From Mobula hypostoma (lineage: Eukaryota), in NCBI RefSeq assembly GCF_963921235.1, contig NC_086108.1, positions 9,734,001-9,798,000 of the forward strand: 64,000 nucleotides of DNA, given 5' to 3'. Numbering within the stretch: the stretch's first letter is position 1; the number at the start of each line of letters is the position of its first letter. Below, in pieces: positions 22,672 to 64,000 of the stretch. The translations under genes were made by a program, and so were the position numbers. The notes under the pieces were generated by a model that saw only the letters and a program-made list of their open reading frames with translations, searched no databases and was not told the DNA's origin.

Positions 22672-23395
22672 GTACCTTTTCCTAGAGATGCTGCCTGGCC
22701 TGCTGCATTCACCAGAAACTTTGATGTGTGTTGCTTGAATTTCCAGCATCTGCAGAATTCCTGTTGTTTGCGTTTTTAAAATTCACTACTGCGAAGCCTC
22801 TTCCGGTGATGCCTACACCGAAGAAGTTTAGATCCTCTCTTCGACAGGAGTTCAGTGAAACCATCTCCCACTGCTCCCCATCTGTAATTTCTTCAGCTCT
22901 TCAACTTTATTTCGAGTTCCCTCAACTCGAGAATCGGCAGCAAACTCTCTCCATTGAGAGAGAGAGATTGATTGATTGATTGTTTGAGCTGGACCCAATG
23001 TCTCAATGCTTCAATCCCCTGCCACCCTTCAGTCAGCAACAGCGCTGAAGAATCGGGTCGTCTACAGGGCTGCAGAGCCGTCGAGTCTCCAAGGCTGCTC
23101 CTGTGTAAAGACCTGCTGTCTGAGTGCGGGTGTAGATTACAGACTCAGACAGGACCCCAGCCGCATTGAAAAGGAAAGAACAGCCATTAAAGAGAAGAAT
23201 TTATTTTTCAGATTAATTCAAAGGAGTCACCCTCTGGTTCCGACTTTAGCTCCTCCTCCCTCTGTATCCATGCAGTTGGTCCATATCCTTCAAAGCCTTT
23301 GATTTTGTATCCCAATGCTTTTGTGATCCAGTGCTCCTTCTCTCTCTTGCTCTGTCACTTGTTGCTCCGCGAAGAAGCTGCCTGTGTTCGATTGG

Positions 23396-28199: not shown

Positions 28200-28201
28200 A
28201 T

Positions 28202-32719: not shown

Positions 32720-32982
32720 AACAGATTCTTCCCTCCTCCATAAGATTTCTGAATGGGCAGTGAACCCATGAACACTCTTTGGTTATATTATTCCCTCTCT
32801 TTTTGCACGAATTGTTTAATTTAATCTAAAAATGTGAAGTAAATTATATTTAAATTATTTTAATCTAAAATCTAAAATAAATTAATTTAATCTAAAATGT
32901 TAAATAAATTATTAAATTTAATCAGGAAAATGGTCAAGGATCCCACTCCCTGCTCATGGACTGTTTGTCCCACTTCCATCAG
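32720..32982 (+). mobile_element. Possible Rex1/Babar-type LINE scraps separated by an AT-rich stretch
   Basis: AACAGATTCTTCCCTCCTCCATAAGATTTCTGAAT resembles the C-terminal NSFFPxAIRxLN motif. AAGGATCCCAC...GCTCATGGACTGTTTGTCCCACTTCCATCAG resembles KDPTHPAHGLFVPLPS. The matches are short and recognised by eye. Confidence 0.45.
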
Positions 32983-35900
32983 AATCACCCTACTCCACAC
33001 CAGGACCACACTCAACAACAGAGTCACCATATTCCACAACAGGACCACATTCCACACCAGGATCACTCTACTCCACATCAGGATCACCCTTCTCCACACC
33101 AGGATCACACTCCACACCAGGATGACACTTCTCCACACTAGAATCACACTCCACACCAGGATCACCCTACTCCACACCAAGATTGCCCTACTCCATACCA
33201 GGATCACCCTACTCCACAACAGGAACACACTCCACACCAGGATCACACTCCACACCAGGATCATCCTACTCCACACCAGGACCACCTTACTCAACGCCAG
33301 GATCACACTCCACACCAGGATCACACTCCACATGAGGATCACACTACTCCACACCAGGATCACCCTACTCCACACCAGAATCACTCTACTCCACACCAGG
33401 ATCACCCTACTCCACACCAGGACCACCCTACTCCACACCAGGATCACCCTACTCCACACCAGGATCACCCTACTCCACACCAGAATCACTCTACTCCACA
33501 CCAGGATCACCCTACTCCACACCAGGAACACACTCCACACCAGGATAACACCTCACACCACGATCACTCTTCTCCACAACAGAATCTCCCTACTGCACAC
33601 CAGAAACACCCTACTCCACACCAGGATCACACACCACACCAGAATCACCCTACTCCACACCAGGATCACACTACTCCACATCAGTATCACACTCCACACC
33701 AGGATCACTCAACCCCACACCAGGATCACTCTACCCCACACCAGGACCACCCTACTCCACACCAAGATTGCCCTACTCCACAACAGGAACACACTCCACA
33801 CCAGGATCACACTCCACACCAGGATAACACCTCACACCACGATCACTCTCCTCCACAACAGAATCTCCCTACTGCACACCAGAAACACCCTACTCCACAG
33901 CAGGATCACACACCACACCAGAATCACCCTACTCCACACCAGGATCACCCTACTCCACACCAGAATCACTCTACTCCACACCAGGATCATCCTACTCCAC
34001 ACCAGGACCACCTTACTCAACACCAGGATCACACTCCACACCAGGATCACACTCCACACCAGGATCACACTACTACACACCAGGATCACCCTACTCCACA
34101 CCAGAATCACTCTACTCCACACCGGGATCACCCTACTCCACACCAGGACCACCCTACTCCACACCAGGATCACCCTACTCCACACCAGGATCACCCTACT
34201 CCACAGTAGGTTCTCACTCCACACCAAAATCACACTACTCCAAACCAGAATCACCCTACTCCACACCAGAATCACCCTACTCCACACCAGGACCACCCTA
34301 CTCCACACCAGGATCACCCTACTCCACACCAGGATCACCCTACTCCACACCAGGATCACCCTACTCCACACTAGGATTGCCCTACTCCAAACCAGTATCA
34401 CACTCCACACCAGGATCACTCTACACTACACCAGAATCAACCTACTCCACACCAACACCACCCTATTCCACAACATGACCACCCTACCCGACACCAGGAT
34501 CACTGTACCCCACACCCGGATCACCCTCCACACCAGGATCGCCCTACTCCACACCAGAATCACCCTACTCCACACCAGTATCACTCTACTCCACACCAGG
34601 ATCACCCTACTCCACACCAGGATCACACTACACACCAGGATCATTGTACTCCACACCAGGATCCCCCTACTCCACAGCAGGATCACTCTACTCCACACCA
34701 GGGTCACCCTACTCCACACCAGGATCCCCCTACTCCACAGCAGGATCACTCTACTCCACACCAGGGTCACCCTACTCCACACCAGGACTACCCTACTCCA
34801 GACCAAGATTGCACTTCTCCACACCAGGATCACCCTACTCCGCACCAGGATCACAGTTCACTCCAGGATCACCCTTCTCTACACCAGAATCACCCTACTC
34901 CACAACAGAATGACCCTACTCCACACCAGGACCACCCTACCCCACATCAGGATCACACTCCAGACCAGGATCACCATACTCCACACCAGAATCACTATAC
35001 TCCACACCAGGATCACCCTATTGCACACCACAATCGCACTCCACCCCAGGATCACCCTACTCCACACCGGGATCACCATACTCCACACCAGAATCACTAT
35101 ACTCCACACCAGGATCACCCTACTGCACACCAGAAACACTCTACTGCACTCCATGATCACACTACTCCACACCAGGATCACACATTTCCACACCAGGATC
35201 ACACTACCCCACACCAGGATCACACTCCACACCAGGATCACCCTACTCCACACCAGGATCACCCTACTCCACACCAGAATCACTCTACTCCACACCAGGA
35301 TCACCCTACTCCACACCAGGATCACCCTACTCCACACCAGAATCACTCTACTCCACACCAGGATCACCCTACTCCACACCAGGACAACCCTAATCTACAC
35401 CAGGATCACACTCTGCACCAGGATCTCAGTCCACACCAGGATCGCCCTTCTCCACACCAGGATCACCCTACTCCACACCAGGATCACCCTACTCCACACC
35501 AGGATCGCCCTACTCCACACCAGGATCACCCTACTCCACACTAGGATTGCCCTACTCCAAACCAGTATCACACTCCACACCAGGATCACTCTACACTACA
35601 CCAGAATCAACCTACTCCACACCAACACCACCCTATTCCACAACATGACCACCCTACCCGACACCAGGATCACTGTACCCCACACCCGGATCACCCTCCA
35701 CACCAGGATCGCCCTACTCCACACCAGAATCACCCTACTCCACACCAGTATCACTCTACTCCACACCAGGATCACCCTACTCCACACCTGGATCACACTA
35801 CACACCAGGATCATTGTACTCCACACCAGGATCCCCCTACTCCACAGCAGGATCACTCTACTCCACACCAGGGTCACCCTACTCCACAGCAGGATCACTC

Positions 35901-38900
35901 TACTCCACACCAGAATCACCCTACTCCACACCAGGACTACCCTACTCCAGACCAAGATTGCACTTCTCCACACCAGGATCACCCTACTCCGCACCAGGAT
36001 CACAGTTCACTCCAGGATCACCCTTCTCTACACCAGAATCACCCTACTCCACAACAGAATGACCCTACTCCACACCAGGACCACCCTACTCCACATCAGG
36101 ATCACACTCCAGACCAGGATCACCCTACTCCACACCAGAATCGCACTCCACCCCAGGATCACCCTACTCCACACCAGAATCGCACTCCACCCCAGGATCA
36201 CCCTACTCCACACCGGGATCACCATACTCCACACCAGAATCACTATACTCCACACCAGGATCAACCTACTGCACACCAGAAACACTCTACTCCACACCAG
36301 AATCACTCTACTCCACGCCAGGATTACCCTACTGCACACCAGAAACACTCTACTGCACTCCATGATCACACTACTCCACACCAGGATCACACATTTCCAC
36401 ACCAGGATCACTCTACTCCACACCAGGATCACCCCACTCCACACCAGGACCACCTTACTCAACGCCAGGATCACACTCCACACCAGGATCACACTCCACA
36501 TGAGGATCACACTACTCCACACCAGGATCACCCTACTCCACACCAGAATCACTCTACTCCACACCAGGATCACCCTACTCCACACCAGAATCACTCTACT
36601 CCACACCAGGATCACCCTACTCCACACCAGGACAACCCTAATCTACACCAGGATCACACTCCACACCAGGATCACACTCAACACCAGGATCACACTCCAC
36701 ACCAGGATAACACCTCACACCACGATCACTCTTCTCCACAACAGAATCTCCCTACTGCACACCAGAAACACCCTACTCCACACCAGGATCTCACACCACA
36801 CCAGAATCACCCTACTCCACACCAGGATCACACTACTCCACATCAGTATCACACTCCACACCAGGATCACTCTACTCCACACCAGAATCACACTACTCCA
36901 CACCAGGATCATCTTACTCCACATCAGGACCACCTTACTCAACACCAGGATCACACTCCATACCAGGATCATACTCCACACCAGGATCACACTACTCCAC
37001 ACTAGGATCACCCTACTCCACACCAGAATCACTCTACTCCACACCAGGATCACCCTACTCCACACCAGGACCACACTACTCCACACCAGGATCACCCTAC
37101 GCCACACCAGAATCACTCTACTCCACACCAGGATCACCCTACTCCACACCAGGATCACCCTACTCCACACCAGAATCACTCTACTCCACACCAGGACCAC
37201 CCTACTCTACACCTGGATCACACTCTGCACCAGGATCTCACTCCACACCAGGATCGCCCTTCTCCACACCAGGATCACCCTACTCTACACCTGGATCACA
37301 CTCTGCACCAGGATCTCACTACACACCAGGATCTCCCTTCTCCACACCAGGAACACCCTACTCCACACCAGAATCACCTTACTCCACACCAGGACCACAC
37401 TCCACACCAGAATCACCCTACTCCATACGAGAATCACCCTACTCCACACCAGAATACCTTACTCCACTCCAAGACCACCCTATTCCACACCAGGACCACC
37501 CAACCCCACAGCAGGATCACACGACCCCACACCAGGATCACACTCCACAACAGGGTCGCCCTACTCCACACGAGCATAACCTTACTCCACTCCAGGATCA
37601 CACTCCACACCAGTATCATCCTACTCCACACCAGGACCACACTCCACACCAGGTTCATACTCCACACCAGGATCTCCCTACTCCACACCAGAAGCACCCT
37701 ACTCCACACCAGGATCACCCTACTCCATACCAGGACAACCCTACACCACAACAGGATCTCCCTACTCCACATCAGGAGCAGCCTACTCCACACCAGGATC
37801 ACCCTACTCCACACCAGGACAACCCTACACCACAACAGGATCTCCCTACTCCAGATCAGGAGCACCCTACTCCACACCAGGACCACCCTATTCCACACCA
37901 GGACCACCCTATTCCACACCAGAATCACACTGCACACCAGGATCACACTACTCCACACCAGGACCACCTAACCCCACACCAGGATCACACTCCACACCAG
38001 GATCACACTACTCCACAGTAGGTTCTCACTCCACACCAAAATCACACTACTCCAAACCAGAATCACCCTACTCCACACCAGAATCACCCTACTCCACACC
38101 AGGACCACCCTACTCCACACCAGGATCACCCTACTCCACACCAGGATCACACTACTCCACAGTAGGTTCTCACTCCACACCAAAATCACACTACTCCAAA
38201 CCAGAATCACCCTACTCCACACCAGAATCACCCTACTCCACACCAGGACCACCCTACTCCACACCAGGATCACCCTACTCCACACCAGGATCGCCCTACT
38301 CCACACCAGGATCACCCTACTCCACACTAGGATTGCCCTACTCCAAACCAGTATCACACTCCACACCAGGATCACTCTACACTACACCAGAATCAACCTA
38401 CTCCACACCAACACCACCCTATTCCACAACATGACCACCCTACCCGACACCAGGATCACTGTACCCCACACCCGGATCACCCTCCACACCAGGATCGCCC
38501 TACTCCACACCAGAATCACCCTACTCCACACCAGTATCACTCTACTCCACACCAGGATCACCCTACTCCACACCAGGATCACACTACACACCAGGATCAT
38601 TGTACTCCACACCAGGATCCCCCTACTCCACAGCAGGATCACTCTACTCCACACCAGGGTTACCCTACTCCACACCAGGACTAACCTACTCCAGACCAAG
38701 ATTGCACTTCTCCACACCAGGATCACCCTACTCCGCACCAGGATCACAGTTCACTCCAGGATCACCCTTCTCTACACCAGAATCACCCTACTCTACAACA
38801 GAATGACCCTACTCCACACCAGGACCACCCTACTCCACATCAGGATCACACTCCAGACCAGGATCACCCTACTCCACACCAGAATCGCACTCCACCCCAG

Positions 38901-40960
38901 GATCACCCTACTCCACACCGGGATCACCATACTCCACACCAGAATTACTATACTCCACACCAGGATCACCCTATTGCACACCACAATCGCACTCCACCCC
39001 AGGATCACCCTACTCCACACCGGGATCACCATACTCCACACCAGAATCACTATACTCCACACCAGGATCACCCTACTGCACACCAGAAACACTCTACTCC
39101 ACACCAGAATCACTCTACTCCACGTCAGGATTACCCTACTCCACACCAGGATCACCCTACTGCACACCAGAAACACTCTACTGCACACCATGATCACACT
39201 ACTCCACAGCAGGATCGCACATTTCCACACCCGGATCACACTACCCCACACCAGGATCACCCCACTCCACACCAGAATCACTCTACTCCACACCAGGATC
39301 ACACACCACACCAGAATCACCCTACTCCACAGCAGGATCACCCTACTCCACACCAGGATCACACTCCACACCAGGATCACCCTACTCCACACCAGGATCA
39401 CCCTACTCCACATAAGTATCACACTCCTAACCAGGATCACCTTACTCCACACCAGGATCACAATACTCCACACCAGAATCACACTCCACAACAGGATCAC
39501 CCTACTCCACACCAGAATCACCCTACTTCATACCAGGATCACACTCCACACCAGGATCAGCCTTCGCCACACCAGAATCACCCTACTCCACACCAGAATC
39601 ACCCTACTCCACCCCAGGACCACCCTACTCCACACCAGAATCTCACTCCACACCAGGATCACCTTACTCCTCACCAGGATCAGCCTACGCCACACCAGAA
39701 TCACTCTACTCCACACCAGGATCACCCTACTCCACACCAGAATCACTCTACTCCACACCAGGATCACCCTACTCCACACCAGGACCACCCTACTCCACAC
39801 CAGGACCACCCTACTCCACACCAGGACCACCCTACTCCACACCAGAATCACACTCCACACCAGGATCTCACTCCACACCAGGATCCCCGTACTCCACACC
39901 AGGATCACACTCCACACCAGGATCACCCTACTCCACACCAGAATCACTCTACTGCACACCAGAATCACACTACTGCAGACCAGGATCACCCTACTCCACA
40001 CCAGGATCACACTCCACACCAGGATCACACTACTCCACACCAGGATCCCTGTACTCCACACCAGGATCACACTCCACACCAGGATCACTCTACTCCACAC
40101 CAGGGTCACCACACTCCACTCCATGACTACCCTACTCCACACCAGGATTGCACTTCTCCACACCAGGATCACCCTACTCCACACCAGGATCACAGTTCAC
40201 ACCAGGATCACCCTTCTCTACACCAGAATCACCCTACTCTACAGCAGAATGACCCTTCTCCACACCAGGACCACCCTACTCCACATCAGGATCACACTCC
40301 AGACCAGGATCACCCTACTCCACACCAGAATCGCACTCCACCCGAGGATCACCCTACTCCACACCGGGATCACCATACTCCACACCAGAATCACTCTACT
40401 CCACACCAGGATCACCCTACTGCACAACAGAAAAACTCTATTCCACACCATGATCACACTACTCCACACCAGGATCTCATTCCATACCAGGATCACACTA
40501 CTCCACACCAGGATCACACATTTCCACATCAGGATCACACTACTCCACACCAGGACCACCCTACTCCACACCAGAATCACCCCACTCCACAGCAGGACCA
40601 CCCTACTCCACACAAGGATCACACTACACCACACCAGGATCATACTCCACACCAGGATCGCCCTATTGCACACCAGCATCACCCTACTCCGCACCAGGAT
40701 CGCTCTACTCCACATCAGGATCAACCTACGCCACACCAGAATTGCTCTACTGCACACCAGGATCACCCTACTCCACACCAGAATCACTCTACTCCACACC
40801 AGGATCACTCTACTCCACACCAGGACCACCCTACTCCACACCAGGATTGCCGTTCTCCACACTAGGATCACACTACTCCACACCAGCATCACCCTATTCC
40901 ACACACATCAAAGTTGCTGGTGAACGCAGCAGGCCAGGCAGCATCTCTAGGAAGAGGTAC

Positions 40961-40996
40961 AGTCGACGTTTCAGGCCGAGACCCTTCGTCAGGACT
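40961..40996 (-). ncRNA. Minimal type I hammerhead ribozyme motif
   Basis: Reverse complement is AGTCCTGACGAAGGGTCTCGGCCTGAAACGTCGACT. Confidence 0.8.
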
Positions 40997-41454
40997 AACT
41001 GAAGGAAGAGTGAGTAAGGGATTTGAAAGCTGGAGGGGGAGGGGGAGATGAAGATCTAAGATGAAGCCACACTCAGGTTGGAGGAACAACACCTTATATT
41101 CCGTATGGGTAGCCTCCAACCTGATGGCATGAACATTGACTTCTCTAACTTCCGCTAGGCCCCACCTCCCCCTCGTACCCCATCTGTTACTCTTTTTTAT
41201 GCACACATTCTTTCTCTCACTCTCCTTTTTCTCCCTCTGTCCCTCTGAATATACCTCTTGCCCATCCTCTGGGTCACCCCCCCCCCCCCGTCTTTCTTCC
41301 CGGACCTCCTGTCCCATGATCCTCTCGTATCCCCTTCTGCCTATCACCTGTCCAGCTCTCGGCTCTATCCCTCCCCCTCCTGTCTTCTCCTATCATTTTG
41401 CATCTCCCCCTCCCCCTCCAGCTTTCAAATCCCTTACTCACTCTTCCTTCAGTT

Positions 41455-41490
41455 AGTCCTGACGAAGGGTCTCGGCCTGAAACGTCGACT
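41455..41490 (+). ncRNA. Minimal type I hammerhead ribozyme motif
   Basis: AGTC CTGACGA AGGGTCTCGGCCT GAAAC GTC GACT; predicted cleavage after C41486. Confidence 0.8.
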
Positions 41491-43830
41491 GTACCTCTTC
41501 CTAGAGATGCTGCCTGGCCTGCTGCGTTCACCAGCAACTTTGATGGGTGTTGCTTGAATTTCCAGCATCTGCAGAATTCCTGTTGTTCACCCTATTCCAC
41601 ACCAGGATCACTCTACTCCATACCAGGATCATCCTACTCAACACCAGGACCACCTTACTCCACACCAGGATCACACTCGACACCAGGATCACACTACTCC
41701 ACACCAGGATCACTCTACTCCACACCAGAATCACTCTACTCCACACCAGGATCACCCAACTCCACATCAGGACCACCTTACTCCACACCAGGATCACACT
41801 TCGCACCAGGATCTCACTCCACACCAGGATCGCCCTTCTCCACACCAGGATCACCTTACTCCACAGCAGGATCACCCTACTTCACACCAGAATCACATTC
41901 CACAACAGGATCACCCTACTCCACACCAGAATCACCCTACTTCACACCAGGATCACCTTACTCCACAGCAGGATCACCCTACTTCACACCAGAATCACAT
42001 TCCACAACAGAATCACACTCCACACAAGGATCACCCTACTCCACACCAGAATCACGTTACTCCACACCAGGACCACACTCCACACCAGGACAACCCTACT
42101 CCATACGAGAATCACGATACCCCACACCAGAATCACCTTTCTCCACTCCAAGACCACCCTATTCTACACCAGTACCACCCTATCCCACACCAGGATCACA
42201 CTACCCCACACCAGAATCACCCCACTACACAGCAGGACCACCCTACTCTACACCAGGATCACACTCCACACCAGGATCGCCATATTGCACACCAGCATCA
42301 CCCTACTCCGCACAAGGATTGCCCTACTCCACATCTGGATCAACCTACGCCACACCAGAATAGCTCTACTGCACACCAGGATCACTCTACTCCACACCAG
42401 AATCACTCTACTCCACACCAGGATCACCCTACTCCACACCAGAATCACTCTACTCCACACCAGGATCACCCTACTCCACACCAGGACCACCCTACTCCAC
42501 ACCAGGACCACCCTACTCCACACCAGGACCACCCTACTCCACACCAGGATCACTCTACTCCACACCAGGATCACTCTACTCCACACCAGGATCACCCTAC
42601 TCCACACCAGAATCACTCTACTCCACACCAGGATCACCCTACTCCACACCAGGACCACCCTACTCCACACCAGGACCACACTACTCCACACCAGGACCAC
42701 CCTACTCCACACCAGAATCACACTCCACACCAGGATCTCACTCCACACCAGGATCCCCGTACTCCACACCAGGATCACACTCCACACCAGGATCACCCTA
42801 CTCCACACCAGAATCACTCTACTGCACACCAGAATCACACTACTGCAGACCAGGATCACCCTACTCCACACCAGGATCACACTCCACACCAGGATCACAC
42901 TACTCCACACCAGGATCCCCCTACTCCACACCAGGATCACACTCCACACCAGGATCACTCTACTCCACACCAGGGTCACCCCACTCCACACCAGGACTAC
43001 CCTACTCCACACCAGGATTGCACTTCTCCACACCAGGATCACCCTACTCCACACCAGGATCACAGTTCACACCAGGATCACCCTTCTCTACACCTGAATC
43101 ACCCTACTCTACAGCAGAATGACCCTACTCCATACCAGGACCACCCTACTCCACATCAGGATCACACTCCAGACCAGGATCACCCTACTCCACACCAGAA
43201 TCGCACTCCACCCCAGGATCACCCTACTCCACACCGGGATCACCATACTCCACACCAGAATCACTCTACTCCACACCAGGATCACCCTACTGCACAACAG
43301 AAAAACTCTATTCCACACCATGATCACACTACTCCACACCAGGATCTCATTCCATACCAGGATCACACTACTCCACACCAGGATCACACATTTCCACACC
43401 AGGATCACACTACTCCACACCAGGACCACCCTACTCCACACCAGAATCACCCCACTCCACAGCAGGACCACCCTACTCCACACAAGGATCACACTACACC
43501 ACACCAGGATCATACTCCACACCAGGATCGCCCTATTGCACACCAGCATCACCCTACTCCGCACCAGGATCGCTCTACTCCACATCAGGATCAACCTACG
43601 CCACACCAGAATTGCTCTACTGCACACCAGGATCACCCTACTCCACACCAGAATCACTTTACTCCACACCAGGATCACCCTACTCCACACCAGGACCACC
43701 CTACTCCACACCAGGATTGCCGTTCTCCACACTAGGATCACACTACTCCACACCAGCATCACCCTATTCCACACACATCAAAGTTGCTGGTGAACGCAGC
43801 AGGCCAGGCAGCATCTCTAGGAAGAGGTAC

Positions 43831-43866
43831 AGTCGACGTTTCAGGCCGAGACCCTTCGTCAGGACT
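43831..43866 (-). ncRNA. Minimal type I hammerhead ribozyme motif
   Basis: Identical to 40961-40996. Confidence 0.8.
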
Positions 43867-44323
43867 AACTGAAGGAAGAGTGAGTAAGGGATTTGAAAGC
43901 TGGAGGGGGAGGGGGAGATGAAGATCTAAGATGAAGCCACACTCAGGTTGGAGGAACAACACCTTATATTCCGTATGGGTAGCCTCCAACCTGATGGCAT
44001 GAACATTGACTTCTCTAACTTCCGCTAGGCCCCACCTCCCCCTCGTACCCCATCTGTTACTCTTTTTTATGCACACATTCTTTCTCTCACTCTCCTTTTT
44101 CTCCCTCTGTCCCTCTGAATATACCTCTTGCCCATCCTCTGGGTCACCCCCCCCCCCCGTCTTTCTTCCCGGACCTCCTGTCCCATGATCCTCTCGTATC
44201 CCCTTCTGCCTATCACCTGTCCAGCTCTCGGCTCTATCCCTCCCCCTCCTGTCTTCTCCTATCATTTTGCATCTCCCCCTCCCCCTCCAGCTTTCAAATC
44301 CCTTACTCACTCTTCCTTCAGTT

Positions 44324-44359
44324 AGTCCTGACGAAGGGTCTCGGCCTGAAACGTCGACT
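44324..44359 (+). ncRNA. Minimal type I hammerhead ribozyme motif
   Basis: Identical to 41455-41490; predicted cleavage after C44355. Confidence 0.8.
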
Positions 44360-47017
44360 GTACCTCTTCCTAGAGATGCTGCCTGGCCTGCTGCGTTCAC
44401 CAGCAACTTTGATGTGTGTTGCTTGAATTTCCAGCATCTGCAGAATTCCTGTTGTTCACCCTATTCCACACCAGGATCACTCTACTCCATACCAGGATCA
44501 TCCTACTCAACACCAGGACCACCTTACTCCACACCAGGATCACACTCGACACCAGGATCACACTACTCCACACCAGGATCACTCTACTCCACACCAGAAT
44601 CACTCTACTCCACACCAGGATCACCCAACTCCACATCAGGACCACCTTACTCCACACCAGGATCACACTTCGCACCAGGATCTCACTCCACACCAGGATC
44701 GCCCTTCTCCACACCAGGATCACCTTACTCCACAGCAGGATCACCCTACTTCACACCAGAATCACATTCCACAACAGGATCACCCTACTCCACACCAGAA
44801 TCACCCTACTTCACACCAGGATCACCTTACTCCACAGCAGGATCACCCTACTTCACACTAGAATCACATTCCACAACAGGATCACCCTACTCCACACCAG
44901 AATCACACTCCACACAAGGATCACCCTACTCCACACCAGAATCACCCTACTTCACACCAGGATCACACTCCACACCAGGATCACCCTACTCCACACCAGC
45001 ATCACCCTATTCCACACCAGGATCACTCTACTCCATACCAGGATCACTCTACCCGACATCAGGATCAACTTACTCCGCAGCAGGATCACCCTACTCCACG
45101 CTAGGATCACACTCCAAACCAGGATCACCCTACTACACACCAGGATCACCCTACTCCACACCAGGATCGCCTTACTCCACACCAGGATCACCCTACTCCA
45201 CACCAGGACCACCCTACTCCACACCAGGATCACACACCACACCAGAATCACCCTACTCCACAGCAGGATCACCCTACTCCACACCAGGATCACTCTACTC
45301 CACACCAGGATCACCCCACTCCACACCAGAATCACTCTACTCCACACCAGGATCACCCTACTCCACACCAGAATCACCCTACTCCACAGCAGGATCACCC
45401 TACTCCACACCAGGATCACACTCCACACCAGGATCACCCTACTCCACACCAGGATCACCCTACTCCACATAAGTATCACACTCCTAACCAGGATCACCTT
45501 ACTCCACACCAGGATCACAATACTCCACACCAGAATCACACTCCACAACAGGATCACCCTACTCCACACCAGAATCACCCTACTTCATACCAGGATCACA
45601 CTCCACACCAGGATCAGGCTTTTCCACATCAGAATCACACTACTCCACACCAGAATCACCCTACTCCACACCAGGACCACCCTACTCCACACCAGAATCA
45701 CACTCCACACCAGGATCACCTTACTCCATACCAGGATCACCCTACGCCACACCAGAATCACTCTACTCCACACCAGGATCACCCTACTCCACACCAGAAT
45801 CACTCTACTCCACACCAGGATCACCCTACTCCACACCAGGACCACCCTACTCCACACCAGGACCACCCTACTCCACACCAGGACCACCCTACTCCACACC
45901 AGAATCACACTCCACACCAGGATCTCACTCCACACCAGGATCCCCGTACTCCACACCAGGATCACACTCCACACCAGGATCACCCTACTCCACACCAGAA
46001 TCACTCTACTGCACACCAGAATCACACTACTGCAGACCAGGATCACCCTACTCCACACCAGGATCACACTCCACACCAGGATCACACTACTCCACACCAG
46101 GATCCCTGTACTCCACACCAGGATCACACTCCACACCAGGATCACTCTACTCCACACCAGGGTCACCCCACTCCACACCAGGACTACCTTCTTCCACACC
46201 AGGATTGCACTTCTCCACAGCAGGATCACCCTACTCCACACCAGGATCACAGTTCACACCAGGATCACCCTTCTCTACACCTGAATCACCCTACTCTACA
46301 GCAGAATGACCCTTCTCCACACCAGGACCACCCTACTCCACATCAGGATCACACTCCAGACCAGGATCACCCTACTCCACACCAGAATCGCACTCCACCC
46401 GAGGATCACCCTACTCCACACCGGGATCACCATACTCCACACCAGAATCACTCTACTCCACACCAGGATCACCCTACTGCACAACAGAAAAACTCTATTC
46501 CACACCATGATCACACTACTCCACACCAGGATCTCATTCCATACCAGGATCACACTACTCCACACCAGGATCACACATTTCCACACCAGGATCACACTAC
46601 TCCACACCAGGACCACCCTACTCCACACCAGAATCACCCCACTCCACAGCAGGACCACCCTACTCCACACAAGGATCACACTACACCACACCAGGATCAT
46701 ACTCCACACCAGGATCGCCCTATTGCACACCAGCATCACCCTACTCCGCACCAGGATCGCTCTACTCCACATCAGGATCAACCTACGCCACACCAGAATT
46801 GCTCTACTGCACACCAGGATCACCCTACTCCACACCAGAATCACTTTACTCCACACCAGGATCACCCTACTCCACACCAGGACCACCCTACTCCACACCA
46901 GGATTGCCGTTCTCCACACTAGGATCACACTACTCCACACCAGCATCACCCTATTCCACACACATCAAAGTTGCTGGTGAACGCAGCAGGCCAGGCAGCA
47001 TCTCTAGGAAGAGGTAC

Positions 47018-47053
47018 AGTCGACGTTTCAGGCCGAGACCCTTCGTCAGGACT
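47018..47053 (-). ncRNA. Minimal type I hammerhead ribozyme motif
   Basis: Identical to 40961-40996. Confidence 0.8.
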
Positions 47054-47510
47054 AACTGAAGGAAGAGTGAGTAAGGGATTTGAAAGCTGGAGGGGGAGGG
47101 GGAGATGAAGATCTAAGATGAAGCCACACTCAGGTTGGAGGAACAACACCTTATATTCCGTATGGGTAGCCTCCAACCTGATGGCATGAACATTGACTTC
47201 TCTAACTTCCGCTAGGCCCCACCTCCCCCTCGTACCCCATCTGTTACTCTTTTTTATGCACACATTCTTTCTCTCACTCTCCTTTTTCTCCCTCTGTCCC
47301 TCTGAATATACCTCTTGCCCATCCTCTGGGTCACCCCCCCCCCCCGTCTTTCTTCCCGGACCTCCTGTCCCATGATCCTCTCGTATCCCCTTCTGCCTAT
47401 CACCTGTCCAGCTCTCGGCTCTATCCCTCCCCCTCCTGTCTTCTCCTATCATTTTGCATCTCCCCCTCCCCCTCCAGCTTTCAAATCCCTTACTCACTCT
47501 TCCTTCAGTT

Positions 47511-47546
47511 AGTCCTGACGAAGGGTCTCGGCCTGAAACGTCGACT
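47511..47546 (+). ncRNA. Minimal type I hammerhead ribozyme motif
   Basis: Identical to 41455-41490; predicted cleavage after C47542. Confidence 0.8.
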
Positions 47547-50500
47547 GTACCTCTTCCTAGAGATGCTGCCTGGCCTGCTGCGTTCACCAGCAACTTTGAT
47601 GTGTGTTGCTTGAATTTCCAGCATCTGCAGAATTCCTGTTGTTCACCCTATTCCACACCAGGATCACTCTACTCCATACCAGGATCATCCTACTCAACAC
47701 CAGGACCACCTTACTCCACACCAGGATCACACTCGACACCAGGATCACACTACTCCACACCAGGATCACTCTACTCCACACCAGAATCACTCTACTCCAC
47801 ACCAGGATCACCCAACTCCACATCAGGACCACCTTACTCCACACCAGGATCACACTTCGCACCAGGATCTCACTCCACACCAGGATCGCCCTTCTCCACA
47901 CCAGGATCACCTTACTCCACAGCAGGATCACCCTACTTCACACCAGAATCACATTCCACAACAGGATCACCCTACTCCACACCAGAATCACCCTACTTCA
48001 CACCAGGATCACCTTACTCCACAGCAGGATCACCCTACTTCACACCAGAATCACATTCCACAACAGAATCACACTCCACACAAGGATCACCCTACTCCAC
48101 AGCAGAATCACGTTACTCCACACCAGGACCACACTCCACACCAGGACAACCCTACTCCATACGAGAATCACGATACCCCACACCAGAATCACCTTTCTCC
48201 ACTCCAAGACCACCCTATTCTACACCAGTACCACCCTATCCCACACCAGGATCACACTACCCCACACCAGAATCACCCCACTACACAGCAGGACCACCCT
48301 ACTCTACACCAGGATCACACTCCACACCAGGATCGCCATATTGCACACCAGCATCACCCTACTCCGCACAAGGATTGCCCTACTCCACATCTGGATCAAC
48401 CTACGCCACACCAGAATAGCTCTACTGCACACCAGGATCACTCTACTCCACACCAGAATCACTCTACTCCACACCAGGATCACCCTACTCCACACCAGGA
48501 TCACACTCCGCACCAGGATCTCACTCCACACCTGGATCGCCCTTCTCCACACCAGGATCACACTACCCCACACCAGAATCACCCCACTACACAGCAGGAC
48601 CACCCTACTCTACACCAGGATCACACTCCACACCAGGATCGCCATATTGCACACCAGCATCACCCTACTCCGCACAAGGATTGCCCTACTCCACATCTGG
48701 ATCAACCTACGCCACACCAGAATAGCTCTACTGCACACAAGGTTCACCCTACTCCACACCAGAATCACTCTACTCCACACCAGGATCACCCTACTCCACA
48801 CCAGGATCACACTCCGCACCAGGATCTCACTCCACACCTGGATCGCCCTTCTCCACACCAGGATCACCCTACTACACACCAGAATCAGGTTACTCCACAC
48901 CAGGACCACACTCCACAGCAGGACAACCCTACTCCATACGAGAATCACGATTCTCCACACCAGAATCACCTTACTCCACTCCAAGACCACCCTATTCCAC
49001 ACCAGTACCACCCTATCCCACACCAGGATCACACTACCCCACACCAGAATCACCCTACTCCATACCAGGATCACTCTACCCCACACCAGAATCACCCTAC
49101 TGCACACCAGAATCACACTACTGCACACCAGGATCACCCTACACCACACCAGGATCACCCTACTCCACACCAGGATCGCCCTACTCCATACCAGAATCAC
49201 TCTACTCCACACCAGGATCGCCCTACTCCACACCAGAATCACTCTACTCCACACCAGGATCATCCCACTCCACACCAGGATCACACTACTCCACACCAGG
49301 ATCACCCTACTCCACACCAGAATCACTCTACTCCACACCAGGATCACTCTACTCCACCAGGACCACCCTACACACCAGGATCACACTCCGCACCAGGATC
49401 TCACTCCACACCAGGATCGCCCTTCTCCACACCAGGATCAACTTACTCCACACCAGAATCACCCTACTCCACACCAGAATCACCCTACTTCACACCAGGA
49501 TCACACTCCACACCAAGATCACCCTACTCCACACCAGAATCATCCTACTCCACAGCAGGACCACCCTACTCCACACCAAAATTGCCCTTCTCCACACTAG
49601 GATCACCCTACTCCACACCAGCATCACCCTATTCCACACCAGAATCACTCTACTCCATACCAGGATCACTCTACCCCACATCAGGATCACCTTACTCTAC
49701 ACCAGGATCACCCTACTCCACACCAGCATCACCCTATTCCACACCAGAATCACTCTACTCCATACCAGGATCGCCCTACTCCACACCAGAATCACTCTAC
49801 TCCACACCAGGATCATCCTACTCCACACCAGGACCACCCTGCTCCACACCAGGATCACACTCCACACCAGGATCACACTACTCCACACCAGGATCACCCT
49901 ACTCCGCACCAGAATCACTCTACTCCACACCAGGATCACTCTACTCCACACCAGAATCACCCTACTGCACACCAGAATCACACTACTGCACACCAGGATC
50001 ACCCTACACCACACCAGGATCACCCTACTCCACACCAGGATCGCCCTACTCCATACCAGAATCACTCTACTCCACACCAGGATCATCCTACTCCACACCA
50101 GGAATACCCTGCTCCACACCAGGATCACACTCCACACCAGGATCACACTACTCCACACCAGGATCACCCTACTCCACACCAGAATCACTCTACTCCAAAC
50201 CAGGATCACCCTACTCCACAACAGGACCACCCTACTCCACACCAGGATCACACTCCGCACCAGGATCTCACTCCACACCAGGATCGCCCTTCTCCACACC
50301 AGGATCGCCCTACTCCACACCAGAATCACCCTACTCCACACCAGAATCACCCTACTTCACACCAGGATCACACTCCACACCAAGATCACCCTACTCCACA
50401 CCAGAATCATCCTACTCCACACCAGGACCACCCTACTCCACACCAAGATTGCCCTTCTCCACACTAGGATCACCCTACTCCACACCAGCATCACCCTATT

Positions 50501-53500
50501 CCACACCAGAATCACTCTACTCCATACCAGGATTACTCTACCCCACATCAGGATCACCTTACTCCACACCAGGATCACCCTACTCCACACCAGCATCACC
50601 CTATTCCACACCAGAATCACTCTACTCCATACCAGGATCGCCCTACTCCACACCAGAATCACTCTACTCCACACCAGGATCATCCTACTCCACACCAGGA
50701 CCACCCTGCTCCACACCAGGATCACACTCCACACCAGGATCACACTACTCCACACCAGGATCACCCTACTCCGCACCAGAATCACTCTACTCCACACCAG
50801 GATCACTCGACTCCACCAGGACCACCCTACAAACCAGGATCACACTCCGCACCAGGATCTCACTCCACACCAGGATCGCCCTTCTCCACACCAGGATCAA
50901 CTTACTCCACACCAGAATCACCCTACTCCACACCAGAATCACCCTACTTCACACCAGGATCACACTCCACACCAAGATCACCCTACTCCACACCAGAATC
51001 ATCCTACTCCACAGCAGGACCACCCTACTCCACACCAAAATTGCCCTTCTCCACACTAGGATCACCCTACTCCACACCAGCATCACCCTATTCCACACCA
51101 GAATCACTCTACTCCATACCAGGATCACTCTACCCCACATCAGGATCACCTTACTCTACACCAGGATCACCCTACTCCACACCAGCATCACCCTATTCCA
51201 CACCAGAATCACTCTACTCCATACCAGGATCGCCCTACTCCACACCAGAATCACTCTACTCCACACCAGGATCATCCTACTCCACACCAGGACCACCCTG
51301 CTCCACACCAGGATCACACTCCACACCAGGATCACACTACTCCACACCAGGATCACCCTACTCCGCACCAGAATCACTCTACTCCACACCAGGATCACTC
51401 TACTCCACCAGGACCACCCTACAAACCAGGATCACACTCCGCACCAGGATCTCACTCCACACCAGGATTGCCCTTCTCCACACCAGGATCAACTTACTTA
51501 ACACCAGAATCACCCTACTCCACACCAGAATCACCCTACTTCACACCAGGATCACACTCCACACCAAGATCACCCTACTCCACACCAGAATCATCCTACT
51601 CCACAGCAGGACCACCCAACTCCACACCAAAATTGCCCTTCTCCACACTAGGATCACCCTACTCCACACCAGCATCACCCTATTCCACACCAGAATCACT
51701 CTACTCCATACCAGGATCACTCTACCCCACATCAGGATCACACTCCACACCAGGTTCAGCCTTCTCCACACCAGAATCACCCTACACACCAGAATCACCC
51801 TACTCCACACCAGGACCACCCTACTCCACACCAGGATCACACTCCGCACCAGGATCTCACTCCACACCTGGATCTCCCTTCTCCACACCAGTATAACCCT
51901 ACTCCACACCAGAATCACCTTACTCCACACCAGAATTACTCTACTCCACACCAGTATCACCCTACTCCACACCAGGACAGCCCTACACCACACACGTATC
52001 ACACTCCACACTAGGATCACCGATCTCCAGACCAGATTCACCCTACTCCGTACCAGAATCACCTTACTCCACACCAGGATCACCCTAATCCACACCAGGA
52101 TCGCCTTACTCCACACCATAATCACTCTACTCCACACCAGGATCACCCTACTCCACACCAGAATCACCCTACTCCACACCAGAATCACCATACTCCACAC
52201 CAGGATCACCCTACTCCACACCAGGATCACCCTACTCCACACCAGAATCACTCTACTCCACACCAGGAGCACCCTACTCCACACCAGGATCACCCTACTC
52301 CACACCAGGATCAACCTACTCCACACCAGGATCACACTACTGCACACCAGGATCACCCTACTCCACACCAGGATCACCTTACTCCACACCAGGATCACCT
52401 TACTCCACATCAGGATCACGCTACCCCCCACCAGGATCCCCCTACCCCACACCAGGATCACACTCCACACCAGGATCTCTCTATTCCACACCAGGGTCAC
52501 CCCACTCCACACCAGGACTACCCTACTCCACACTAGGATTGCACTTCTCCTCACCAGGATCACGCCACTCCACACCAGGATCACAGTTCACACCAAGATC
52601 ACCCTTCTCTACACCAGAATCACCCTACTCTACAGCAGAATGACCCTACTCCATACCAGGAACACCCTACCCACATCAGGAATACACTCCAGACCAGGAT
52701 CACGCTACTCCACACCAGAATCGCACTCCACCCCAAGATCACCCTACTCCACACCGGGATCACCATACTCCACACCAGAATAGCTCTACTGCACACCAGG
52801 ATTACCCTACTCCACACCAGAATCACTCTACTCCACACCAGGATCACACTCCGCACCAGGATCTCACTCCACACCTGGATCGCCCTTCTCCACACCAGGA
52901 TCACCCTACTACACACCAGAATCACGTTACTCCACACCAGGACCACACTCCACACCAGGACAACCCTACTCCATACGAGAATCACGATACTCCACACCAG
53001 AATCACCTTACTCCACTCCAAGAACACCCTATTCCACACCAGTACCACCCTATCCCACACCAGGATCACACGACCCCACACCAGAATCACCCTACTCCAC
53101 ACCAGGATCACTCTACCCCACAGCAGAATCACCCTACTGCACACCAGAATCACACTACTGTACACCAGGATCACCCTACACCACACCAGGATCACCCTAC
53201 TCCACACCAGGACAACCCTACTCCACACCAGGATCACCCTACTGCACACCAGGATCACACTACACACCAGGATCATGCTACTCTACACCAGGACCACCCT
53301 ACTCCACACCAGGATCACACTCCACACCAGGATCACCCTACTCCACACCAGGATCACTCTACCCCACACCAGAATCACCCTACTGCACACCAGGATCACC
53401 ATACACTACACCAGGATCTCCCTACTCCACACCAGAACCACCCTACTCCACACCAGGATCACCCTACACCACACCAGGATCACCCTACTCCACACCAGGA

Positions 53501-56500
53501 CAACCCTACTCCACACCAGGAATACCCTACTGCACACCAGAATCACTCTACTCCACACCAGGATCATCCTACTCCACACCAGGACCACCCTACTCCACAC
53601 CAGGATCACCCTACTCCACACCAGGATCACTCTACCCCACACCAGAATCACCCTACTGCACACCAGGATCACCATACACTACACCAAGATCTCCCTACTC
53701 CAGACCAGAACTACCCTACTCCACACCAGGATCACCCTACTCCACACCAGGATCGCCCTACTCCACACCAGGATCACCCTACTCCACACCAGGATCGCCC
53801 TACTCCACACCAGGATTACTCTACTGCACACCAGGACCACCCTACTCCAGACCAGGACCACCCGACTTCACACCAGGATCACACTCCGCACCAGGATCTC
53901 ACTCCACACCTGGATCACCCTTCTCCACACCAGAATCACTCTACTCCACACCAGAATCACCCTACTCCACACCAGAATTACTCTACTGCACACCAGGACC
54001 ACCGTACTCCACACTAGGACCACCCGACTTCACACCAGGATCACACTCCGCACCAGGATCTCACTCCACACCTGGATCACCCTTCTCCACACCAGAATCA
54101 CTCTGCTCCACACCAGAATCACCCTACTCCACACCAGGATTACTCTACTGCACACCAGGACCACCGTACTCCACACTAGGACCACCCGACTTCACACCAG
54201 GATCACACTCCGCACCAGGATCTCACTCCACACCTGGATCGCCCTACTCCACACCATGATCACCCTACTCCACACCAGGACCACCCTACTCCACACCAGG
54301 ATCGCCCTACAACACACCAGGATCACCCTACTCCACACCAGGATCACACTCCACACCAGGATCTCACTCCACACCTCGATCGCCCTTCTCCACACCAGGA
54401 TCACCCTACTCCACACCAGCATCACCTTACTCCACACCAGGACCACACTCCACACCGGGACAACCCGACTCCATACGAGAATCACCATACTCCACACCAG
54501 AATCACACTACTCCACACCAGGATCGCCCTACTCCACACCACGATCACTCTACCCCACACCAGGATCACACTACCCCTCACCAGAATCACCCTACTCCAC
54601 ACCAGGATCACTCTACCCCACACCAGAATCACCCTACTGCACACCAGAATCACACTACTGCACACCAGGATCACCCTACTCCACACCAGGATCACCTTAC
54701 TCCACATCAGGATCACGCTACCCCACACCAGAATCACTCTACTCCACACCAGAATCACCCTACTGCACACCAGAATCACACTACTGCACACCAGGATCAC
54801 CCTAGTCCACACCAGGATCACCTTACTCCACATCAGGATCACGCTACCCCACACCAGGATCCCCCTACTCCACACCTGGATCACACTCCACACCAGGATC
54901 TCTCTATTCCACACCAGGGTCACCCCACTCCACACCAGGACTACCCTACTCCACACTAGGATTTCACTTCTCCACACCAGGATCACGCCACTCCACACCA
55001 GGATCACAGTTCACACCAGGATCACCCTTCTCTACACCAGAATCACCCTACTCTACAGCAGAATGACCCTACTCCATATCAGGAACACCCTACTCCACAT
55101 CAGGAATACACTCCAGACCAGGATCACGCTACTCCACACCAGAATCGCACTCCACCCCAGGATCACCCTACTCCACACCGGGATCGCCATACTCCACACC
55201 AGAATCACTCTACTCCACACCAGGATCACCCTACTGCACACCAGAAACACTCTACTGCACACCATGATCACACTACTCCACACCAGGATCACACATTTCC
55301 ACACCAGGATCACACTACTCCACACCAGGACCACCCTACTCCACACCAGAATCACCCCACTCCACAGCAGGACCACCCTACTCTAAACCAGGATCACACT
55401 CCACACCAGGATCGCCATATTGCACACCAGCATCACCCAACTCCGCACAAGGATTGCCCTACTCCACATCTGGATCAACCTACGCCACACCAGAATAGCT
55501 CTACTGCACACCAGGATCACCCTATCCACACCAGAATCACTCTACTCCACACCAGGATCACCCTACTCCACACCAGGATCACACTCCGCACCAGGATCTC
55601 ACTCCACACCTGGATCGCCCTTCTCCACACCAGGATCACCCTACTACACACCAGAATCACGTTACTCCACACCAGGACCACACTCCACACCAGGACAACC
55701 CTACTCCATACGAGAATCACGATACTCCACACCAGAATCACCTTACTCCACTCAAAGACCACCGTATTCTACACCAGTACCACCCTATCCCACACCAGGA
55801 TCAAACTACCCCACACCAGAATCACCCTACTCCATACCAGGATCACTCTACCCCACACCAGGATCACCCTACTCCACACCAGGACAACCCTACTCCACAC
55901 CAGGACAACCCTACTCCACACCAGGATCACCCTACTCCACACCAGGATCGCCCTACTCCACACCAGAATCACTCTACTCCACACCAGGATCATCCTACTC
56001 CACACCAGGAGCACCCTACTCCACACCAGGATCACACTCCACACCAGGATCACACTACTCCACACCAGGATCACCCTACTCCACACCAGAATCACTCTAC
56101 TCCACACCAGGATCACTCTACTCCACCAGGACCACCCTACACACCAGGATCACACTCCGCTCCAGGAACTCACTCCACAACAGGATCGCCCTTCTCCACA
56201 CCAGGATCAACTTACTCCACACCAGGATCACCCTACTCCACACCAGAATCACCCTACTTCACACCAGGATCACAATCCACACCAAGATCACCCTACTCCA
56301 CACCAGAATCATCCTACTCCACAGTAGGACCACCCTACTCCACACCAAAATTGGCCTTCTCCACACTAGGATCACCCTACTCCACACCAGCATCACCCTA
56401 TTCCACACCAGAATCACTCTACTCCATACCAGGATCATTCTACCCCACATCAGGATCACCTTAGTCCACATCAGAATCACCCTACTCCACACCAGGATCA

Positions 56501-62500: not shown

Positions 62501-64000
62501 ACCAGAATCACTCTACTCCACACGAGGATCACCCTACTCCACACCAGGTCCACCCTACACACCAGGATCACACTCCGCACCAGGATCTCACTCCACACCA
62601 GGATCGCCCTTCTCCACACCAGGATCACCTTACTCCACACCAGGATCACCCTACTCCACACCAGGATCACACTCCACACCAGGATCACCCTTCTCCACAC
62701 CAGAATCAACCGACTCCACACCAGAATCAACCTACTCCACACCAGAATCATCCTACTCAAAAGCAGCACCACCCTACTCCACACCAAAATTGCCCTTCTC
62801 AACGCTAGGATCACCCTACTCTACACCAGCATCACCCTATTCCACACCAGGACCACCCTACTCCACACCAGGATCACACTCCACACCAGGATCTCACTCC
62901 CCACCTCGATCGCCCTTCTCCACACCAGGATCACCCTACTCCACACCAGAATCACCTTACTCCACACCAGGATCACTCTACCCCACACCAGAATCACCTT
63001 ACTGCACACCAGAATCACACTACTGCACACCAGGATCACCCTACTCCACACCAGGATCACCATAGTCCACATCAGGATCACGCTACCCCACACCAGGATG
63101 CCCCTACTCCACACCAGGATCACACTCCACACCAGGATCTCTCTATTCCACACCAGGGTCACCCCACTCCACACCAGGACTACCCTACTCCACACTAGGA
63201 TTGCACTTCTCCACACCAGGATCACGCCACTCCACACCAGGATCACAGTTCACACCAGGATCACCCTTCTCTACACCAGAATCACCCTACTCTACAGCAG
63301 AATGACCATACTCCATACCAGGAACACCCTACTCCACATCAGGAATACACTCCAGACCAGGATCACGCTACTCCACACCAGAATCGCACTCCACCCCAGG
63401 ATCACCCTACTCCACACCGGGATCGCCATACTCCACACCAGAATCACTCTACTCCACAACAGGATCACCCTACTGCACACCAGAAACACTCTACTGCACA
63501 CCATGATCACACTACTCCACACCAGGATCACACATTTCCACACCAGGATCACACTACTCCACACCAGGACCTCCCTACTCCACACCAGAATCACCCCACT
63601 CCACAGCAGGACCACCCTACTCTACACCAGGATCACACTCCTAACCAGGATCGCCATATTGCACACCAGCATCACCCTACTCCGCACAAGGATTGCCCTA
63701 CTCCACATCTGGATCAACCTACGCCACACCAGAATAGCTCTACTGCACACCAGGATCACTCTACTCCACACCAGAATCACTCTACTCCACACCAGGATCA
63801 CCCTACTGGACACCAGGATCACACTCCGCACCAGGATCTCACTCCACACCTGGATCGCCCTTCTCCACACCAGGATCACCCTACTACACACCAGAATCAC
63901 GTTACTCCACACCAGGACCACACTCCACACCAGGACAACCCTACTCCATACGAGAATCACGATACTCCACACCAGAATCACCTTACTCCACTCCAAGACC

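What the first reader, a model, noticed from the sequence alone, without database searches (positions are those of the whole stretch)
40889..47658. Satellite array punctuated by hammerhead ribozyme cassettes on both strands (retrozyme-like architecture)
Seen: three near-identical ~680-bp cassettes inside the 21-bp minisatellite. Each carries AGTC-CTGACGA-AGGGTCTCGGCCT-GAAAC-GTC-GACT once on each strand, giving six intact motifs, with + strand copies 2869 and 3187 nt apart. Known: CUGANGA / GAAA / NUH is the hammerhead core. PLEs carry minimal type I hammerheads whose tiny palindromic stem III favours cleavage as dimers, and tandem hammerheads in newt satellite 2, schistosome Sm-alpha and retrozymes process multimeric transcripts into monomers or circles. 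Inference: read-through transcription on either strand would place several motifs in cis and could cut the satellite RNA into ~2.9- and ~3.2-kb units, so a passive satellite may have acquired a self-processing module. The motif itself is a known PLE feature; its co-amplification with an unrelated minisatellite on both strands is the unusual part.
Basis: partly seen in the sequence, partly recalled or inferred. Interest (0 to 1): 0.8.

Follow-up and report, generated by a model that had tools for sequence, protein, structure and literature searches.

The report
Triplicated Penelope fragment inside a minisatellite
One broken, folded-back scrap of a very common jumping gene landed in a repetitive DNA array and was later copied twice with the surrounding repeats; its ribozyme motifs and their two-strand layout are ordinary features of such elements, not a new RNA-cutting module.

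Summary
The six motifs and their spacing are real. Each 681-682-bp cassette is the 3' end of a young Penelope-like retrotransposon (PLE): 32 GIY-YIG codons, the 3' region with a minimal type I hammerhead, and an inverted ~150-nt copy at the 5' end, within a 16-bp target-site duplication. The three share one junction found nowhere else in the genome, plus 0.4-1.6 kb of flanks: one insertion, two DNA duplications, in an array that also duplicates blocks without the cassette. The two-strand layout is ordinary. The exact motif has 32,886 genomic copies, 8 of 27 sampled dispersed insertions carry it on both strands, and the layout is in print. Cis-processing into 2.9- and 3.2-kb units is unlikely: on either strand each hammerhead follows its own antisense arm and folds into a 150-bp duplex, so a contiguous transcript leaves at most one motif free, whereas minimal hammerheads need a partner. 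The two intervals are not copies of each other. RNA ends and assembly accuracy could not be tested. Earlier notes of this scan reported the same family, and one similar two-strand cassette, elsewhere in this genome.

The parts
32980..63995 (.). 21-bp minisatellite host array; single locus, continuing to about 22 kb beyond the window end
   Evidence: TRF, 1513 copies; all 44 exact 51-mer consensus matches in the genome lie on C50 at 9767433-9820104, + strand
40889..40904 (+). Left copy of the 16-bp target-site duplication (also 43759-43774 and 46946-46961)
   Evidence: longest flanking repeat is 16 bp
40905..41050 (-). Cassette 1 inverted arm: reverse-complement copy of the PLE 3' end, without the terminal tail
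   Evidence: arms 40901-41050 and 41401-41550, 150 nt, 99% complementary; the outer 4 nt overlap the TSD
40961..40996 (-). Minimal type I hammerhead motif, predicted cleavage after C40965
41051..41057 (.). 7-nt filler at the inversion junction; marks this single insertion event
   Evidence: gap between arms read; the 39-nt junction occurs 3 times in the genome with up to 2 mismatches, all in this array
41060..41158 (+). Last 32 codons and stop of the PLE ORF (end of the GIY-YIG region)
   Evidence: translation equals the C-terminus of the RT plus GIY-YIG ORF of L006
41058..41586 (+). Cassette 1 direct body: 5'-truncated PLE 3' end
   Evidence: 98.5% identical to L006; the 40 dispersed-plus-local candidates scored of 1782 are 97-100% identical
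41455..41490 (+). Minimal type I hammerhead motif (stem I 4 bp, extra A after A9, stem II closed by G.U, palindromic ACGU in place of stem III); predicted cleavage after C41486
41551..41586 (+). 36-nt terminal tail, present on one arm only
   Evidence: the inverted arm stops at the equivalent of 41550, the body runs to 41586; same asymmetry in dispersed inverted copies
41587..41602 (+). Right copy of the 16-bp target-site duplication (also 44456-44471 and 47643-47658)
43775..44455 (.). Cassette 2, DNA duplicate; motifs at - 43831-43866 and + 44324-44359
44986..45046 (+). Uninterrupted counterpart of the insertion site (one copy of the 16-mer, no cassette)
   Evidence: exact match for 32 nt leftwards, 16-mer included, and 29 nt rightwards
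46962..47642 (.). Cassette 3, identical to cassette 2; motifs at - 47018-47053 and + 47511-47546
39306..48504 (+). Span of the duplicated blocks: 39306-42448, 42515-44885 and 45363-48504
   Evidence: self-alignment at 98.8-99.7% identity
21001..21556 (.). Independent, older insertion of the same family with the same two-strand inverted layout, in non-satellite DNA, with a 12-bp TSD
21991..22768 (+). Independent direct 5'-truncated copy with the GIY-YIG region and one motif

Best explanation
A young, very abundant endonuclease-bearing Penelope-like retrotransposon with a Neptune-type linker inserted once into a single-locus 21-bp minisatellite. It left a 5'-truncated copy with an inverted 3'-end segment at its 5' side and a 16-bp TSD (shown). 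The inversion puts the element's hammerhead on both strands (shown). Two later DNA duplications, with breakpoints in the satellite flanks, carried the cassette along as a passenger (duplication shown; unequal exchange as the mechanism is inferred). If the array is read through, the likeliest RNA product is a 150-bp stem that buries each hammerhead, a double-stranded RNA rather than a processing signal (predicted, not measured). The cassette is most likely inert.
For: Identity: the body is 98.5-98.9% identical to L006. L006 has an open 532-aa stretch with RVT_1 (E 6.8e-07, at cutoff) and GIY-YIG (E 4.4e-04, 20.9 bits, below the 22.6 cutoff). Abundance: 32,886 exact motifs, one per 106 kb, so 0.5 expected in a 53-kb array. 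Inversion is ordinary: among the first 100 listed matches there are 9 minus-then-plus pairs within 3 kb, against one each of the other three orientations. Of 27 distinct dispersed insertions, 11 have an adjacent 5' inverted arm and 8 carry the motif on both strands. L040 is a near twin (677 bp, 13-bp TSD). TSDs of 10-16 bp occur in 14 of 24 measurable insertions, against 0 of 300 null pairs above 8 bp. One event: the same junction 3 times, only here; shared flanks of 1.2-1.6 kb left and 0.4-0.9 kb right; an empty counterpart at 44986-45046. Cassette-free parts of the array are also duplicated, 35% and 62% covered. Folding: arm duplex -325.5 kcal/mol; all 36 motif bases pair with the antisense arm in the + strand fold; stem I probability is 0.0 on both strands and in nascent transcripts. 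In a 3.1-kb model starting inside cassette 1, the second motif is fully duplexed. Literature: PMC8557442, PMC4209133 and PMC11167929.
Against: All six motifs are intact, though the insertion is young (about 1-1.5% from dispersed copies), so this needs no selection. Folding ignores kinetics, tertiary contacts, nuclear RNA-binding proteins and helicases. A related PLE hammerhead cleaves when its ORF protein is added (PMC11167929), so help in trans is conceivable. The 27 insertions are the first matches on contig C1, selected on an exact motif, not a random genome-wide sample. Transcription of this locus was not measured.
Confidence: 0.86

Rival explanations
1. One reading: read-through RNA is cut at the hammerheads into 2.9- and 3.2-kb satellite RNAs or circles, in cis as dimers or with help from the PLE protein or abundant family RNA in trans; a proto-retrozyme.
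For: Intact core, palindromic ACGU for dimer pairing, and stems I and II form in the isolated 36-mer (pair probabilities 0.65-0.95). PLE hammerheads show low dimer activity (PMC4209133) and protein-assisted activity (PMC11167929). Retrozymes are argued to derive from PLE terminal repeats (bioRxiv 10.64898/2026.07.22.740005).
Against: Sense and antisense motifs alternate on both strands, so a contiguous transcript has at most one unpaired motif (from the coordinates; modelled). Even without the arm, local context lowers stem probabilities to about 0.002. The two inter-motif intervals differ in their middles, 42017-42514 against 44886-45701, so one is not a copy of the other. Known animal retrozyme units are 51-972 bp or 150-450 bp. 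The natural G-C variant of the stem II closing pair is more stable than this G.U form (-7.9 against -6.0 kcal/mol). PMC11167929 found no RNA-seq ends at its PLE's cleavage site.
Confidence: 0.04
2. One real insertion, but one or both extra copies are assembly artefacts of a long tandem array.
For: Cassettes 2 and 3 are identical over 681 bp, and right flanks differ by only 1 base in 424-856. Long minisatellites are hard to assemble (general knowledge).
Against: Left flanks differ at 11-21 positions over 1.2-1.6 kb, in a mosaic pattern, and the blocks have different end points. This looks like recombination among real copies more than read duplication.
Confidence: 0.07
3. The inverted repeat is not passive at the DNA level: it forms a hairpin during replication and promoted the local duplications.
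For: The 150-bp, 99% arms; 94% of 39306-48810 is duplicated against 35% and 62% elsewhere in the array.
Against: That interval was drawn from the duplications themselves, so the 94% is circular. Breakpoints lie 0.4-1.6 kb from the arms. The 350-nt spacer should weaken hairpin-driven instability (recalled). Cassette-free blocks duplicate too.
Confidence: 0.03

Closest known systems
5'-truncated, 5'-inverted insertions of EN+ Penelope-like elements (Neptune/Nematis linker type), PMC8557442
   Same: RT plus C-terminal GIY-YIG in the parent family; CX2-5CxxC linker; 5' truncation; adjacent inverted copy; 30-40-bp tail at one end only; hammerhead near the 3' end.
   Different: Only the host site (a 21-bp minisatellite) and two later DNA duplications. 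Neptune against Nematis was not resolved.
Minimal type I hammerheads of metazoan PLEs, PMC4209133
   Same: Core, 4-bp helix I, extra base between 9 and 10.1, palindrome in place of helix III; pairs 100-700 bp apart on opposite strands are already reported there.
   Different: G.U rather than the conserved G10.1-C11.1 pair in the dominant variant (32,886 against 5,931 copies for the C variant); 4-bp helix II against 7-8 bp in schistosomes; far more copies than the 4,000-9,000 reported for coelacanth and Xenopus.
   Same: Type I hammerhead motifs repeated in direct orientation along a tandem array; PLE ancestry.
   Different: Intervals are 2.9 and 3.2 kb and not copies of one unit; every motif has an adjacent antisense copy; minimal rather than canonical hammerhead; no dispersed copies of the unit; no circular RNA shown.
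Retroelement insertions carried along by segmental duplication inside satellite arrays (recalled, not read here)
   Same: One insertion with shared flanks, multiplied by array turnover.
   Different: The passenger happens to carry a ribozyme motif.

Membership tests
EN+ Penelope-like element (fragment) | Parent family encodes RT with C-terminal GIY-YIG | tested here: met
   L006 532-aa open stretch: RVT_1 at cutoff, GIY-YIG E 4.4e-04 but below cutoff; cassette 98.5-98.9% identical to its 3' end
EN+ Penelope-like element (fragment) | 5' truncation with adjacent inverted copy | tested here: met
   11 of 27 dispersed insertions alike
EN+ Penelope-like element (fragment) | 30-40-bp tail on one end only | tested here: met
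   36 nt, 41551-41586; family ends cluster near reference positions 1993-2003 and 2029-2032
EN+ Penelope-like element (fragment) | Target-site duplication as in sister copies | tested here: met
   16 bp; 10-16 bp in 14 of 24 measurable dispersed insertions, null maximum 8 in 300
Neptune clade | CX2-5CxxC linker before GIY-YIG (shared with Nematis) | tested here: met
   C-X4-C-X2-C in the L004, L006, L007, L009 and L010 translations; definition from PMC8557442
Neptune clade | RT phylogeny groups with Neptune, not Nematis | not tested
   no reference RT set or tree was run
Minimal type I hammerhead | CUGANGA, GAAA and NUH core | tested here: met
   6 of 6 motifs
Minimal type I hammerhead | Helices I and II, extra base after A9, palindromic 15.2-16.2 | tested here: met
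   pair probabilities 0.65-0.95 in the isolated 36-mer in the extra-A register
Minimal type I hammerhead | Conserved G10.1-C11.1 pair | tested here: not met
   G.U here; the G-C form exists as a minority variant, 5,931 matches
Minimal type I hammerhead | Rfam hammerhead model match | tested here: not met
   no hammerhead family at gathering score or up to E 10; whether these models can detect motifs lacking helix III was not checked
Minimal type I hammerhead | Self-cleavage | not testable with these tools
   needs an in vitro assay or raw RNA reads
Non-LTR retrozyme | Short tandem unit (150-450 bp; 51-972 bp in the wider survey), one motif per unit | tested here: not met
   intervals of 2869 and 3187 nt with non-matching middles and two motifs per cassette (definitions)
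Non-LTR retrozyme | Unit dispersed as monomers or multimers elsewhere in the genome | tested here: not met
   junction found 3 times, all here; satellite at one locus
Non-LTR retrozyme | Two motifs free to fold in one transcript | tested here: not met
   predicted duplex with the antisense arm; prediction only
Non-LTR retrozyme | Unit-length linear and circular RNAs | not testable with these tools
   only contigs were available for candidate RNA runs

The most novel reading that the evidence does not exclude
The array is transcribed, the family's own RT-endonuclease protein or abundant family RNA frees the hammerheads from their antisense arms, and 2.9- and 3.2-kb satellite RNAs or circles are released: a kilobase-unit retrozyme caught at birth from a PLE end and an unrelated minisatellite.
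Probability: 0.04. Interest if true: 0.6.

Novelty: new member of a known kind. Interest (0 to 1): 0.15.

Why it matters
As it stands it matters little: it is one of probably thousands of two-strand PLE fragments in this genome (extrapolated from 9 pairs per 100 listed matches). Two points carry over. A 5'-inverted PLE insertion always puts an antisense arm ahead of the hammerhead, so two-strand motifs predict a buried ribozyme and double-stranded RNA, not bidirectional processing. And the family, with over 32,000 identical motifs and copies with long open ORFs, is a good system for the open question of whether PLE hammerheads cleave in vivo; that question belongs to the family, not this locus. 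If unit-length RNAs were found here, they would show how retrozyme-like satellites can arise from PLE ends.

Tried and rejected
Rfam scans gave no hammerhead hit. The promoter scan is for bacterial sigma-70 sites and says nothing here. Stem II was first modelled with A10.1-U11.1; that register is less stable than the extra-A register (-4.6 against -6.0 kcal/mol), so the stem II probabilities and the -8.9 kcal/mol dimer energy are set aside, while its stem I and duplex results stand. Sequencing runs: 20 of 24 listed hold part of the stretch; the four same-species runs from other samples are only guessed to be RNA and are contigs. In 4 laid runs the family body is covered in all. The last bin, in the satellite flank, has depth 47.9 (X1), 4.9 (X6) and 0 (X5, X8); a hole in contigs proves nothing, and X1 may be the source sample, so this is not used as evidence. 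Contigs cannot show RNA ends, strand or copy number. The region upstream of L006 (L041) shows the PLE ORF continuing in a 334-aa open stretch, CR1-like RT fragments further up (by recall) and no hammerhead, so no complete tandem element was seen. The DNA beyond the window end was not read, so other insertions in the last ~22 kb of the array are unknown; one search excludes further copies of this junction. The idea that the cassette is itself a mobile non-autonomous family was rejected (two 88-89% junction look-alikes on C18 were taken as independent inversions and not read). Targeting of the rare TATT unit variant (36 of 689 units) fits the ATT preference reported for another PLE but is one event. 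Paper searches listed no title or abstract on a PLE hammerhead cassette duplicated within a minisatellite; two searches were seen as listings only, and no supplements were opened.
Full report
Observation. The cassettes are 40905-41586, 43775-44455 and 46962-47642; the second and third are identical and the first differs at two positions. The host is a 21-bp minisatellite at 32980-63995. All 44 exact matches to a 51-nt consensus lie at one place on contig C50, so it is a single array of about 53 kb, not a dispersed satellite family. Rfam reports no hammerhead, so the ribozyme call rests on anatomy: an intact core, a 4-bp helix I, an extra A after A9, a 4-bp helix II closed by G.U, and a palindromic ACGU in place of helix III. 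This matches the minimal hammerhead of PMC4209133 (parts 1-2 of 4 read: introduction, results, discussion) except for the G.U pair.

What the cassette is. From 41058 to 41586 it is the 3' end of a Penelope-like element: 32 codons and a stop that end a GIY-YIG region, then the untranslated end with the motif. It is 98.5-98.9% identical to locus L006. L006 holds an open 532-aa stretch with an RT domain at the Pfam cutoff and a GIY-YIG domain just below it, and a C-X4-C-X2-C linker that PMC8557442 assigns to the Neptune and Nematis clades (12 of 26 passages read). The left 146-150 nt are a 99% inverted copy of the same 3' end, which is the only reason the motif is on both strands. A 36-nt tail is on one arm only, and a 16-bp direct repeat flanks the whole. 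That the host is a cartilaginous fish, probably a ray, comes from recall and earlier AI notes and was not tested.

The two-strand layout is ordinary. The exact 36-mer occurs 32,886 times in the 3.48-Gb assembly, with 0 for the control, and a variant with the G-C closing pair 5,931 times. Among the first 100 listed matches, 9 neighbour pairs within 3 kb are minus-then-plus, as here, against one each of the other three orientations. The 30 fetched loci are 27 distinct insertions after merging three pairs. Of these, 11 have an adjacent 5' inverted arm and 8 have the motif on both strands. TSDs of 10-16 bp were found in 14 of the 24 with both ends inside the locus (3 left out), against a null maximum of 8 bp in 300 pairs. 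L040 is nearly a twin, and the window has another at 21001-21556 in non-satellite DNA. These loci are the first on contig C1 and were selected on an exact motif, so the fractions are rough. PMC8557442 calls the adjacent inverted copy and the one-sided 30-40-bp tail typical of PLEs; PMC4209133 reports dual motifs 100-700 bp apart on opposite strands.

How it became three. The inversion junction occurs three times in the genome, all here. The copies share the TSD and 1.2-1.6 kb of left and 0.4-0.9 kb of right flank at about 99%. A 61-nt uninterrupted counterpart of the target lies at 44986-45046. So one insertion was followed by two duplications whose ends lie in satellite DNA, far from the cleavage sites. 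The blocks are 39306-42448, 42515-44885 and 45363-48504, so the two inter-motif intervals differ in their middles and are not copies of one unit. Cassette-free parts of the array hold their own duplicated blocks, at offsets of 0.3-8.8 kb, covering 35% and 62%. At the genomic density 0.5 exact motifs are expected in 53 kb, so one insertion needs no special cause. Unequal exchange is inferred, not shown. An assembly duplication is not excluded: left flanks differ at 11-21 positions in a mosaic way, which argues for real copies, but no long reads were available.

Would it cut RNA? On either strand a read-through transcript meets the antisense arm before the sense motif, with 350 nt between the arms. 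The arm duplex is predicted at -325.5 kcal/mol. All 36 motif bases pair with the arm in the + strand fold, and helix I has probability 0.0 on both strands, also in transcripts ending just past the motif. Because sense and antisense motifs alternate, any contiguous transcript has at most one unpaired motif. In a 3.1-kb model starting inside cassette 1, the second motif is fully duplexed and the first is misfolded. Minimal hammerheads showed no monomer activity and low dimer activity in PMC4209133. In PMC11167929 (parts 1-2 of 4 read) a PLE hammerhead cleaved only with its protein, was not needed for insertion in vitro, and left no RNA-seq ends. Against my reading: the isolated 36-mer folds helices I and II well, folding ignores kinetics and proteins, and protein assistance is documented, so cleavage is not excluded. 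The available runs were contigs and could not show ends or locus-specific transcription.

Comparison. It is a member of the PLE fragment class on every structural feature tested. It resembles animal retrozymes only in having repeated motifs. It fails on unit size and identity, dispersal of the unit and freedom of two motifs to fold, as defined in PMC7229834 (12 of 18 passages) and bioRxiv 10.64898/2026.07.22.740005 (parts 1-2 of 5; supplement closed). Four searches listed nothing on this exact combination, but both ingredients are known: the inverted PLE layout from the papers read, passenger duplication in arrays from recall. Eight of 59 matching earlier notes on this genome were shown; they reach the same family call, one for a similar two-strand cassette in an intron. 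They are not independent evidence. No note lay near this locus.

Verdict. Real, correctly seen and ordinary: a new member of a known kind, interest 0.15. The boldest reading not excluded, protein-assisted release of kilobase satellite RNAs, gets probability 0.04.

Noticed in passing
window 14542-15080: A single ~540-bp insertion interrupts the other, 28-bp minisatellite (4-19026). It starts with short A-rich repeats and looks like the 3' end of a CR1/L2-type LINE on the minus strand (by recall). So both arrays in the window take up retro-insertions.
   Followed up: no
window 19229-20140: Older minus-strand PLE remnant, 67-76% identical to L006, with a decayed hammerhead region.
   Followed up: partly
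window ~32340-32640: Purine-rich stretch that reads like another decayed minus-strand PLE tail; not picked up by the BLAST.
   Followed up: no
window ~25170-28400: Long minus-strand stretch that looks like a LINE RT remnant with a short-repeat tail (by eye).
   Followed up: no
genome-wide: The dominant hammerhead variant has G.U in place of the conserved G10.1-C11.1 pair and outnumbers the G-C form about 5.5 to 1. The weaker-looking motif amplified more, which fits relaxed or absent need for cleavage; CpG decay could also contribute and was not tested.
   Followed up: partly
L019 and other loci: Many truncation and inversion points fall at or next to the motif. One inverted arm starts at reference 1930, within 2 nt of the predicted cleavage site (1928/1929). 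The sample is biased by selection on an intact motif.
   Followed up: no
L038/L039 (G000:C1:2546804-2546875): Two motifs abut back to back with no spacer, a perfect palindrome centred at the motif's 5' end.
   Followed up: no
L006 3-1598: Natural copy with an open RT-linker-GIY-YIG stretch of at least 532 aa that continues upstream in L041, consistent with a recently active family.
   Followed up: partly
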